Below are positions 5,005-21,268 of a DNA stretch of 64,000 bases, in pieces (within the stretch, counting starts at the first letter, position 1; each line of letters starts with the position of its first letter). The DNA is from a virus. The notes below the pieces were generated by a model. The model saw only the letters and a list, made by a program, of their open reading frames with translations. It did no database searches and was not told the origin of the DNA. Where the stretch lies: positions 1 through 64,000 of IMG/VR virus record IMGVR_UViG_3300042465_007929; one strand, written 5' to 3'. A program made the translations under genes and the position numbers.

Positions 5005-5721
5005 TTATTCTCTCTGTTTACAAAGATATTCAGCAAACTGAATCATACCATAAATCTGCTCATCGCCCCCGTCAATATAAAAACGAAGACCTCCAAACTT
5101 AGATTTAACTTGAGCAATTTTAACTTCGGCTATTTCTTTTTTAAGATACTTATTCTTAATTCTCAGTCTATTATAGTAGAGGTTCTGAAGCCATTGTTGT
5201 ATTTTATATTTACGAGTGAGTTTGACGATTTCTGAAATATCAGATGGAATTACCCACCATTCTCCTTTATCTACAGGTCGATAGTTTTTATAAGGGTCGA
5301 GAGAGTTATATAGAAAATAATAGATTCTACTCCAAATAGGTTTAAAGATTTTATTACTCAAAAAGATTCTAGTTTTCTTCTTTGGATTTAGAATGCTAAC
5401 ATATCGATACTTCTGGTAATTTACGATAGAACCACAAAGACCGTCCACAATATCTTGCCACGGGCGCGGACAACCAATTCCACACTCGGCGTAAGCTGTA
5501 GTGCCGTCTTCGTTTTTATTAAAAAGAGACGGATATTTCTCCATAAGAGATTTTTCAAAATCATCTTCTTGCTTAATGATATTTGCTGGAGTAGAGAGTT
5601 CTTTATTGATTTCTATAGCATCATCAACTCTCTGTTTAAGTTGAAGGATTTGTTTTTCAAGATCAGCGATATGATCGCTAAACTTAATTCTCTTTGCGTT
5701 TGGATTTCCTTTGGGTGGCAT
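5005..5721 (-). CDS. Hypothetical phage protein with a QVKSKFGGLRFY motif
   Basis: The QxKxKFGxLRFY motif recurs in phage hypothetical proteins. Confidence 0.6.
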   Translation of the reverse strand: MPPKGNPNAKRIKFSDHIADLEKQILQLKQRVDDAIEINKELSTPANIIKQEDDFEKSLMEKYPSLFNKNEDGTTAYAECGIGCPRPWQDIVDGLCGSIVNYQKYRYVSILNPKKKTRIFLSNKIFKPIWSRIYYFLYNSLDPYKNYRPVDKGEWWVIPSDISEIVKLTRKYKIQQWLQNLYYNRLRIKNKYLKKEIAEVKIAQVKSKFGGLRFYIDGGDEQIYGMIQFAEYLCKQRE

Positions 5722-15711: not shown

Positions 15712-15716
15712 AAAAT

Positions 15717-15785
15717 TGGTGGATGTTGGGGAATTGAACCCCGTCCGCAATAGTAAACTATTACGTCGAATCCCTATGGACACCC
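15717..15785 (-). ncRNA. Minimal tmRNA tRNA-like domain lacking the mRNA-like domain
   Basis: GGGUGUC-CAUAGGGAUUCGAC-[GUAAUAG UUUA CUAUUGC]-GGAC-GGGGUUCAAUUCCCC-AACAUCC-A-CCA; G3.U70 and A73. Confidence 0.8.
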
Positions 15786-19880: not shown

Positions 19881-20011
19881 TCTATCGCTGAAGAAGTCCT
19901 CCATATCCACAGAGGTTAATGATCCTTCTTCACTTTTCTACAAATACTAACTCGCTGGAAATTTCCTGTCTGTTTTTTCTGAATACTTCGGGCGATCAAA
20001 CGCACGATAGA
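19881..20011 (-). ncRNA. Stem-closed structured RNA module A
   Basis: Terminal UCUAUCG/CGAUAGA; internal UGAAGAAG/CUUCUUCA and CCUC/GAGG. Confidence 0.55.
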
Positions 20012-20014
20012 AAT

Positions 20015-20128
20015 TGGATTTGCGGCTCAGGTCGCTATCACTCACAATGATTGACATTAAAGTCAGCTATATAAGATTGCTCCTTGTGAAAACGTCTTGG
20101 TTCACGATGACCCCTCAATGACCGCAAA
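20015..20128 (-). ncRNA. Stem-closed RNA module B with an acceptor-like stem and CCA
   Basis: UUUGCGG/CCGCAAA-U-CCA; internal GGUC/GACC, UCACAA/UUGUGA, UGAC/GUCA. Confidence 0.6.
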
Positions 20129-20132
20129 AGTA

Positions 20133-20288
20133 TTTATCTGTCAGACCTTTTACTAAAATATGCCCCTCGCGCATATATGACATCTTCGCTGGTTCACGGA
20201 TGGGCCACTTTGTAGCGATTCACATCGCCTCAGACGGATTCCCAGCATAGGTCTTCATAGCCGTATGTAGATATTCTCGACAGATAAA
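20133..20288 (-). ncRNA. Stem-closed structured RNA module C
   Basis: 10-bp terminal stem UUUAUCUGUC/GACAGAUAAA; internal GCUGG/CCAGC, GCGAU/AUCGC, AUAUGC/GCAUAU. Confidence 0.6.
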
Positions 20289-20293
20289 AAATG

Positions 20294-20402
20294 TAGAAGA
20301 AACTGGATTCGAACCAATATTGTATCATATTGCCTAAGCAATCAAGGAATCAAACCTTGTCGAACAACTGCCGTTGTTGCATTTCCATTATGCTATTCTT
20401 CT
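20294..20402 (-). ncRNA. Anticodon-less tRNA mimic with two T-arm-like hairpins
   Basis: AGAAGAA/UUCUUCU acceptor, GCAU-AAUGGAA-AUGC D-arm, ACAAC-GGCA-GUUGU, extra CAAGG-UUUGAUU-CCUUG, T-arm AUUGG-UUCGAAU-CCAGU. Confidence 0.75.
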
Positions 20403-20406
20403 GAAA

Positions 20407-21098
20407 GTTGTGCAGTACTCTCCTGCTGTCACACCCATAATCCATAGTTGCGACCTATAAGATCTAGCTGATGTTTCTAAAATTTAGAATGACTGAGATG
20501 TCTAATCTAGGACTCTCAAATAGCGGTCTTCATTAAAGATATGCCCTCAGCCATTCAGTTGTCCATAGGGTGTGCATCCCATCGCCTCAAGCAGGACTGG
20601 CTCTACCTAGTACTATAACCATTACCATAGGTGGTTTCTTTACGGTATATTCCTATTCGCCAAGGAAGTAAAGAACGGTTAGACGAAAGTAGACCAATTG
20701 CCCGCCTAAGCAGGCAATTGGAATGTTGTCCATGGCATCATTCGATGCTTACGTTCACGCAGGACTGGCACTAGCTAATGGTTAGCCCACATTAGTCAGG
20801 GTCCATAGAGTATTCACTCTTCGATTCAAGCAGGACTGGCATTATCTATGGATATCCTCATAGCAGGAGAAGGAAGCCCATAACCTTCGTAAGGCTTTTT
20901 GGTATCTACAATGTATGGTTATTGACCCACACGGAATTTCAAGCCTGTAAGCATAACTTAATATGCTCCTAACTCACCGATTTCCATTGTAAAAATAATC
21001 TCTACCGTTAAACCGACTTTCACTGGTCACGAATTCTTCGCAAATTAAATTTGCTTCACTGGTAGAGTCGCCAACGCATCGTAATCGAATACATTAGC
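20407..21098 (-). ncRNA. Large (~690 nt) multi-domain structured RNA with a triplicated motif
   Basis: No ORF of 60 aa or more in any frame, raised GC, many independent stems, GCCAGUCCUGC...AUGGAC three times. Confidence 0.7.
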
Positions 21099-21103
21099 AA
21101 AAT

Positions 21104-21178
21104 TGGCGAGCAGGCGGGAATCTAACCCGCGATCTTTAGCCTATGGGTCTAACGCTTTATACACTAAGCTACTGCTCC
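21104..21178 (-). tRNA. Degenerate tRNA-like element (CAU), pseudo-tRNA or mimic
   Basis: 6-bp acceptor + G-CCA, D-loop without GG, loop CCCAUAG, T-loop UUAGAUU. Confidence 0.6.
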
Positions 21179-21188
21179 TAAAAATTGA

Positions 21189-21260
21189 TTGCGGGTAGTA
21201 GATTCGAACTACTGTGAAATGCTTATGAGACACCTATCTGAACCACTCGATTAACCCGCG
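21189..21260 (-). tRNA. tRNA-fMet-like (CAU)
   Basis: CGCGGGU/ACCCGCA with a C1.A72 mismatch and CU-CAU-AA; lacks the three G-C pairs in the anticodon stem. Confidence 0.8.
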
Positions 21261-21268
21261 ATTAAATA

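What the first reader, a model, noticed from the sequence alone, without database searches (positions are those of the whole stretch)
20294..20402. tRNA mimic with a GNRA tetraloop in place of the anticodon loop and a second T-arm
Seen: a perfect 7-bp acceptor, U8-A9, a D-arm with GG and a canonical UUCGAAU T-arm. The anticodon stem ACAAC/GUUGU is capped by GGCA, and the variable region holds CAAGG-UUUGAUU-CCUUG (T-arm-like) plus AUUGC-UUAG-GCAAU. All stems are intact, which argues against random decay. Inference: it cannot decode, but keeps the elbow and acceptor surfaces; it could be an uncleavable decoy for anticodon nucleases or a ligand for tRNA-sensing proteins.
Basis: partly seen in the sequence, partly recalled or inferred. 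Interest (0 to 1): 0.82.

Follow-up and report, generated by a model that had tools for sequence, protein, structure and literature searches.

The report
Double-elbow phage tRNA mimic, no anticodon
An uncultured phage carries a real, conserved 109-base RNA gene that keeps the body of a tRNA but has no anticodon and appears to hold a second, back-to-front tRNA corner; it belongs to a phage RNA family that I found in no RNA library or paper searched, and its job is untested, my best guess being a decoy against bacterial defences that attack tRNA.

Summary
The element is real and lies on the minus strand (20402 to 20294) of a 140-kb phage, in a tRNA/ncRNA array. One error: GGCA is not a GNRA loop.

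Pattern scans gave 68 distinct members (this one included), 109-123 nt, from phage and metagenome contigs, plus one bacterial MAG contig. All share one acceptor stem enclosing a D arm, a capped hairpin instead of an anticodon arm, an internal T arm, a hairpin, a second D-loop-like segment and the terminal T arm. Stems covary strongly. None has a usable anticodon loop.

New evidence here: in this copy the internal T loop has C56U and the second D-like segment has G19A; the other 67 have G:C. This one matched swap supports a second, circularly permuted elbow. Encoded CCA mostly follows that of neighbouring tRNAs, suggesting tRNA-like maturation.

It is not YrlA, GOLLD, ROOL or T4 RNA C/D. The nearest precedent is T5 RNA2 (two T-loops, different layout). 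Function is untested; a decoy for T-loop- or acceptor-end-attacking defences is my best guess (about 40%). The scan noted what is probably this family before, on other DNA (e1-5666233, e1-5666229).

The parts
20294..20402 (-). Whole 109-nt double-T-arm tRNA-like RNA gene, ending at discriminator A73; CCA not encoded
   Evidence: family model R1 69.5 bits (training member), single copy in the genome
20396..20402 (-). Acceptor stem 5' strand
   Evidence: all 7 pairs show two-sided changes in the family
20379..20395 (-). U8-A9 and D arm (D1) with G18G19; predicted partner of the terminal T loop
   Evidence: pairing inferred from tRNA geometry
20363..20378 (-). 6-bp hairpin at the anticodon position capped by GGCA (GNYA, not GNRA); no anticodon loop
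   Evidence: GGCA 44/68, 4-nt loop 54/68
20343..20359 (-). Internal T arm (T1); this copy has U at T-loop position 56 (window 20352)
   Evidence: C56 in 67 of 68, also in a close relative in run X1
20329..20342 (-). Hairpin H directly after T1; sits where a closed, back-to-front acceptor stem would be
   Evidence: length and loop vary, pairing is kept
20319..20328 (-). Second D-loop-like segment (D2) and U48; this copy has A at position 19 (window 20325)
   Evidence: G19 in 67 of 68
20302..20318 (-). Terminal canonical T arm (T2)
20294..20301 (-). Acceptor stem 3' strand and discriminator A73
19881..21261 (-). Context: ORF-free array of two tRNA-type genes and several structured RNA cassettes; the element lies about 8 nt upstream of a conserved cassette at about 20125-20286

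Best explanation
A functional, non-decoding tRNA mimic with two elbows. The outer body (acceptor stem, first D loop, terminal T arm) folds like a tRNA corner. In the variable region sits a second, circularly permuted corner (internal T arm, hairpin H, D-like segment D2), in the same T, acceptor-like stem, D order as YrlA. Shown: conservation, secondary structure, no anticodon. Supported by one matched base swap: D2 docks on T1. Inferred: it is transcribed with the array, cut out by host tRNA-processing enzymes and given a CCA end. Speculative: during infection it is a stoichiometric decoy that presents a tRNA end and two T-loop corners to host defences that read the tRNA body (T-loop nucleases, CCA- or acceptor-end toxins) and so spares working tRNAs. 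My odds: real selected non-decoding RNA about 0.95; second elbow about 0.75; decoy role about 0.4.
For: 68 distinct members with one layout. On 49 aligned sequences, 96.4% of cells are paired, 17 of 22 pairs show two-sided change, 0 of 500 shuffles match, and slid controls give 39-53%. T1 and T2 pair locally (66-68 of 68 at pairs 50-53), not with each other (17-36 of 68 at the variable pairs). D2-19:T1-56 is G:C in 67 and A:U in this copy; among 36 near-invariant positions this copy departs only at these two and at position 47, which its clade shares. Its sisters L011 and L196 (100/100 support) keep G:C. An A19:U56 elbow also occurs in the annotated T5 tRNA-Ile. CCA is encoded in 14 members whose neighbouring tRNAs encode it, and mostly absent where neighbours lack it. 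50 of 68 have a tRNA within 2 kb. Defences that cut the T-loop (Cash, PMC13462974), cut the CCA end (BaCas12a3, PMC13594972) or modify the CCA/acceptor end (FaRel2, 10.1101/2024.07.05.602228; MenT, PMC10435456) are published.
Against: No functional data at all. The 19:56 swap is a single event found after the fact (my rough odds by chance 1-2%), on a branch longer than its sisters' (0.17 against 0.03-0.04). A looser relative group (L087, L146, L428; 47 bits) has U56 with a GG loop, so it does not show the swap. CCA concordance rests on about three clades, and this copy and L196 lack CCA in CCA-encoding arrays. Much of the invariance in D2 and T2 was imposed by my search patterns. Energy-only folding opens both T loops in just 14 of 68. 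The cassette is absent from three syntenic arrays (L005, L010, L285), so it is dispensable. Acceptor identity varies (16 Ala-like, 10 Val-like, others). A canonical T loop could be cut by a T-loop nuclease rather than block it.
Confidence: 0.4

Rival explanations
1. A chargeable but non-decoding carrier or ligand: it is aminoacylated by an anticodon-independent synthetase (AlaRS, LeuRS) and binds EF-Tu or the ribosome, or donates amino acids to non-ribosomal transferases, somewhat like the tRNA-like domain of tmRNA.
For: A73 in 65 of 68, G3.U70 in 16 of 68. Many members have Leu-type D arms, and the ordinary tRNAs that score best with the family model are tRNA-Leu (T4 48 bits, window 35 bits). 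CCA follows the neighbours. A TLD-only mini-tmRNA lies in the same cluster.
Against: Acceptor identity is not constant. Val-like stems would need an anticodon for ValRS (own knowledge). This copy has A3:U70 and no encoded CCA. It does not explain the second elbow.
Confidence: 0.22
2. A structural adaptor or scaffold: the two elbows and the GGCA-capped hairpins bridge a phage or host protein, or the neighbouring array RNAs, as the tRNA-like module of Y RNAs is thought to do.
For: Same T, stem, D order as YrlA (PMC4201824). GGCA is kept far beyond what a neutral cap needs (44/68 at the anticodon position; GGCA caps H in 34/68), and 31 of 35 GGCA-containing H hairpins carry GUA/GAA, which resembles a bulged-G motif. 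In this clade it always lies about 8 nt upstream of the same RNA cassette.
Against: No Ro60, RtcB or CCA enzyme in this complete genome. No neighbouring protein family is shared by more than 10 of 68 loci. The downstream cassette also occurs without it.
Confidence: 0.2
3. A processing punctuation mark: the tRNA-like fold only directs RNase P and 3'-end nucleases to cut the long array transcript and free the neighbouring RNAs.
For: It sits between cassettes separated by short A/U linkers and has a 7-bp acceptor stem, the RNase P determinant discussed in PMC4201824.
Against: 18 of 68 members have no ARAGORN tRNA within 2 kb (some on short contigs). One elbow would be enough. Neighbouring cassettes exist without it.
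Confidence: 0.08
4. A decoding tRNA-Ser: the internal arm is the anticodon arm (CGA in the family, UGA here, as ARAGORN calls it), H is a long variable arm, and C56U is a synonymous wobble change.
For: ARAGORN calls Ser(tga) at 20293-20389. Both CGA and UGA are serine anticodons.
Against: The would-be position 37 is U in 17 of 68, while anticodon loops need a purine there (own knowledge). The discriminator is A73, not G73. The stem carries the T-arm G52-C62 and G53-C61 signature and is only 4 bp. L167 would read Leu. An extra hairpin lies between the D arm and this arm. ARAGORN misses 67 of 68 members.
Confidence: 0.04
5. A decayed tRNA dimer or pseudogene, or an intron-containing tRNA whose insert is spliced out.
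For: Tandem T-arm fragments arise often by chance in phage tRNA arrays. The cassette is patchy.
Against: Strong covariation over deep divergence (mean column identity 62%). Removing the insert leaves no 7-nt anticodon loop. No group I or II intron hit. No joint inside the element in the contigs laid (weak).
Confidence: 0.03

Closest known systems
Phage T5 RNA2 (NC_005859 32959-33083, annotated 'tRNA-like stable RNA with unknown functions')
   Same: About 125 nt, in a phage tRNA array, tRNA acceptor, D and T arms, no anticodon, two T-loops and a second D-like motif. Similar sequence in 436 cultured phage records.
   Different: In T5 RNA2 the second T arm is nested at the tip of the anticodon stem; here it lies 3' of a closed capped hairpin, followed by H and D2. 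T5 RNA2 scores 36 bits with the family model, like an ordinary tRNA-Leu, against 60-104 for non-training members.
YrlA bacterial and phage Y RNAs (Rfam RF02553; PMC4201824)
   Same: Circularly permuted tRNA module in the order T arm, acceptor-like hairpin, D loop.
   Different: Here the module is nested inside a full outer tRNA body with its own acceptor end. There is no Ro60-binding stem, no Ro60 gene in the genome and no RF02553 hit on the element.
Canonical class II tRNA, especially tRNA-Leu (Rfam RF00005)
   Same: Acceptor, U8, D loop GG, T arm, A73, A15/U48; probably the evolutionary source.
   Different: No anticodon loop; a second T arm and D-like loop fill the variable region.
tmRNA tRNA-like domain (RF00023)
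   Same: No anticodon; Ala-like acceptor in 16 of 68 members; D2 is nearly stemless in this clade.
   Different: No tag ORF or pseudoknots; it has a real D stem and two T arms.
Phage T4 RNA C and RNA D; GOLLD (RF02032) and ROOL (RF03087)
   Same: Stable or structured RNAs of unknown function in phage tRNA clusters.
   Different: T4 RNA C has one T-loop and RNA D none. GOLLD and ROOL models find nothing in this genome.

Membership tests
Canonical decoding tRNA (RF00005) | 7-bp acceptor, D arm with G18G19, T arm | tested here: met
Canonical decoding tRNA (RF00005) | 7-nt anticodon loop with U33 and purine 37 | tested here: not met
   4-nt loop here and in 54/68; the two 7-nt loops lack U33; the T1-as-anticodon reading has U37 in 17/68
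Canonical decoding tRNA (RF00005) | Aminoacylation and ribosomal decoding | not testable with these tools
   needs biochemistry
YrlA Y RNA (RF02553) | Permuted T, acceptor-like stem, D module | tested here: met
   order T1, H, D2 in all 68; docking supported by one swap only
YrlA Y RNA (RF02553) | Ro60-binding terminal stem and score against RF02553 | tested here: not met
   no hit on the element at E up to 10
YrlA Y RNA (RF02553) | Encoded next to a Ro60/TROVE gene | tested here: not met
   none in G000, controls rang; none in four other, incomplete records
T5 RNA2 type | Two T-loops in an anticodon-less tRNA frame | tested here: met
T5 RNA2 type | Second T arm nested inside the anticodon stem; family-level similarity | tested here: not met
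   different layout; 36 bits with R1; no enclosing helix found
tmRNA (RF00023) | Tag ORF, pseudoknots, G3.U70 | tested here: not met
   109 nt, no ORF, A3:U70; no RF00023 hit here
GOLLD (RF02032) | Conserved 3' domain flanking an embedded tRNA | tested here: not met
   no match in the genome at E up to 10
ROOL (RF03087) | Match to the covariance model | tested here: inconclusive
   no match, but no control genome rang either; also no Rfam hit
GNRA tetraloop | Purine at loop position 3 | tested here: not met
   loop is G-G-C-A; whether it adopts a GNRA-like fold was not tested

The most novel reading that the evidence does not exclude
Large phages encode a dedicated family of bivalent, double-elbow tRNA mimics that work as RNA anti-defence sponges, titrating host enzymes that attack the tRNA T-loop or CCA end. 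This would be a counter-defence by decoy, distinct from the known use of cleavage-resistant replacement tRNAs.
Probability: 0.3. Interest if true: 0.88.

Novelty: new variant of a known kind. Interest (0 to 1): 0.64.

Why it matters
Phage tRNA clusters are read today mainly as sources of replacement tRNAs that resist host nucleases. A conserved family that cannot decode means the clusters also carry RNAs with another job. The stable tRNA-like RNAs annotated in T4 and T5 still have no known function; the two-elbow reading gives a concrete, testable structure, and T5 RNA2 offers a cultured model for the broader design. A natural RNA with two tRNA corners would also be a new tertiary architecture. 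Annotation tools miss it or miscall it as tRNA-Ser.

Tried and rejected
Plus-strand reading: folds worse and lacks tRNA signatures. GOLLD, ROOL, YrlA: no match. T4 RNA C/D as the same design: not double-T. Cultured phages: no homolog of the window array or of three family representatives. Alternative helix pairing the bases after T1 with those before T2: not consistently paired. Rod fold with T1 paired to T2, often the energy minimum: rejected by covariation. Expression: only contigs of relatives were available; one run labelled RNA-Seq, possibly DNA, covers array cassettes including parts of the element, which does not show transcription. Independent assemblies of this phage did not reach positions 19 and 56. 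The claim in e1-5666229 that the family usually sits beside RNA-repair genes was not reproduced: no shared neighbour in most loci and no RtcB in G000; the RNA ligase and DUF2828 searches had no ringing control. Literature searches for double-T-arm phage RNAs returned nothing relevant; the library lacks most subscription and older papers, including any original T5 reports. Host not determined.

Full report
Observation. The feature is on the minus strand, 20402 to 20294, of a 139,990-base virus record. It folds into an acceptor stem enclosing five hairpins; this is the minimum-energy structure (-27.8 kcal/mol, z -2.7). Rfam's tRNA model scores it 40.9 bits with a large insertion, and ARAGORN miscalls part of it as tRNA-Ser(tga). 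The cap GGCA is not GNRA, because its third base is C. No CCA is encoded.

Context. The gene lies in an ORF-free stretch of about 1.4 kb, behind two tRNA-type genes and among several structured RNA cassettes separated by short A/U linkers. Related phages carry these cassettes in different combinations. L005, L010 and L285 have the flanking cassettes but not this element; L011 (same contig as L272), L196, L273 and a relative in run X1 have it, just upstream of the same downstream cassette. The array is not GOLLD by model search, and the ROOL search was inconclusive. The genome has no Ro60, RtcB or CCA-adding enzyme.

Family. A scan for two T-loops 24-40 nt apart gave many chance hits but also a clear family. 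Scans on the conserved linker plus T arms gave 45 viral, 86 metagenome and 9 genome stretches (not all metagenome stretches were listed). Parsing yielded 68 distinct full-length members of 109-123 nt. Only one came from a cellular genome set, a Saprospirales MAG contig (L187). All have the order acceptor, D arm, capped hairpin, T1, hairpin H, D-like segment D2, U48, T2, acceptor. The capped hairpin has 3-9 bp; its loop is GGCA in 44 and 4 nt long in 54; the two 7-nt loops lack U33. On 49 aligned members 96.4% of cells pair, 17 of 22 pairs have two-sided changes, no shuffle matches, and slid controls fall to 39-53%. A covariance model gives 60-104 bits for full-length non-training members and the closest looser relatives, and at most 48 for ordinary tRNAs in the T4, T5 and window controls, the best being tRNA-Leu. 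Caveat: invariance in D2 and T2 is partly built into my patterns. Positions T1-56 and D2-19 were left free.

Second elbow. After T1 comes a hairpin and then a segment with the D-loop signature G18 G19 U A. This is the T, acceptor-like stem, D order described for YrlA (PMC4201824). In tRNA, G19 pairs with C56 (established knowledge). In 67 members D2-19 is G and T1-56 is C; in this copy they are A and U. Among 36 near-invariant positions this copy departs only at those two and at position 47, which its clade shares. Its sister sequences keep G:C. Because D1 is GG and T2 has C56 in this copy, only the crossed arrangement (D1 with T2, D2 with T1) gives Watson-Crick pairs at both corners. T5 tRNA-Ile shows that A19:U56 occurs in an annotated phage tRNA (lead from e1-407363). 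This is one event, found after the fact; I put chance at roughly 1-2%. Searches for independent repeats were negative or ambiguous, and one looser group has U56 without the partner change. The cross-paired rod that energy minimisation often prefers is rejected by covariation.

3' end. In 14 members whose neighbouring tRNAs encode CCA (92-100%), the member also encodes CCA; most members without CCA sit in arrays whose tRNAs lack it. This suggests the RNA is matured like a tRNA, though it reflects about three clades, and this copy and L196 are exceptions. The discriminator is A in 65 of 68. Acceptor identity varies: 16 Ala-like (G3.U70), 10 Val-like, others mixed; this copy is neither. Expression was not shown.

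Mechanism. What is conserved is the acceptor end and two T-loop corners; what is discarded is the anticodon. That argues against a decoy aimed at anticodon nucleases such as AriB, which cuts the anticodon stem, although AriB also contacts the D loop and other parts, and its authors raise inhibition by competing viral tRNAs (PMC12409363). It fits better with defences that read the body: Cash cuts T-loops and binds two loops in adjacent pockets (PMC13462974), BaCas12a3 cuts the CCA end (PMC13594972), FaRel2 and MenT modify the acceptor end. I commit to a decoy against such enzymes at about 0.4. This step is inference only. Rivals are a chargeable carrier (0.22), a scaffold using the conserved GGCA hairpins (0.2), a processing signal (0.08), a decoding tRNA-Ser (0.04) and decay or intron (0.03).

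Comparison with what is known. It works like a tRNA mimic of the YrlA or tmRNA kind but fails their membership tests. T4 RNA C and D are not double-T. T5 RNA2, annotated as a tRNA-like stable RNA of unknown function, has two T-loops and a second D-like motif, but nested in the anticodon stem, and it scores only 36 bits. It is the closest precedent and is widespread in cultured T5-like phages. No cultured phage carries this family, and no paper in the searchable library describes it. Earlier scan notes describe what is probably the same family and related designs on other DNA; these are unchecked AI notes and I count them as leads, not support.

Verdict. A real, selected, anticodon-less phage RNA of an apparently undescribed family, probably with two tRNA elbows. 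New variant of a known kind (phage tRNA-like RNAs). Interest 0.64; function untested.

Noticed in passing
window 15714-15785 (-); L005 about 5525-5605 (+): Mini-tmRNA: tRNA-like domain only (G3.U70, encoded CCA) with one hairpin in place of the mRNA domain; Rfam tmRNA 42 bits. A similar element is in L005, while L010 has a full tmRNA.
   Followed up: partly
window 20487-20990 (-): About 500 nt of structured cassettes with three copies of an 11-nt motif (20582, 20750, 20821), 82% identical in L005; single-motif units recur in L010, L011, L285. Contigs of relatives occur in lake metatranscriptome runs X4 and X5. No Rfam hit.
   Followed up: partly
window 20125-20286, 20015-20128 and 19881-20010 (-): Three further conserved RNA cassettes, shuffled and length-variable among L005, L010, L011, L196, L273, L285; no Rfam match.
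   Followed up: partly
window 20997-21100 (-): About 100-nt cassette almost identical in L005 (z -3.3), no Rfam match.
   Followed up: no
window 21103-21178 (-): tRNA missed by ARAGORN (Rfam 48.9 bits) with an odd anticodon loop (C at 33) and an atypical T loop.
   Followed up: no
window 20403-20482 (-): 80-nt cassette just upstream of the element; present separately in relatives in runs X1 and X2; weak fold (z -0.9).
   Followed up: partly
L137:8003-8133 (+), L139:5156-5286 (-), L118:561-691 (+): tRNA-like RNAs with three T-loop-like arms inside one acceptor stem.
   Followed up: no
L124:10201-10320 (-), L136:4556-4675 (+), L048:1673-1793 (+), L044:4786-4903 (+), L056, L411:107-210 (+), L087:164-277 (-): Looser double-T-arm subfamilies (47-66 bits) with different segments after T1.
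   Followed up: partly
L281:4960-5084 (-), phage T5 RNA2: The annotated T5 RNA2 has two T-loops and a second D-like motif nested in the anticodon stem, and also contains GGCA; similar sequence in 436 phage records.
   Followed up: partly
family members such as L153:8007-8125 (+): Hairpin H in GGCA-capped subfamilies carries GUA opposite GAA (31 of 35), resembling a bulged-G (loop E) motif.
   Followed up: partly
L370:8589-8673 (-): The anticodon arm of phage tRNA-Leu(UAA) looks like a T arm; a possible route by which T1 arose from a class II tRNA.
   Followed up: no
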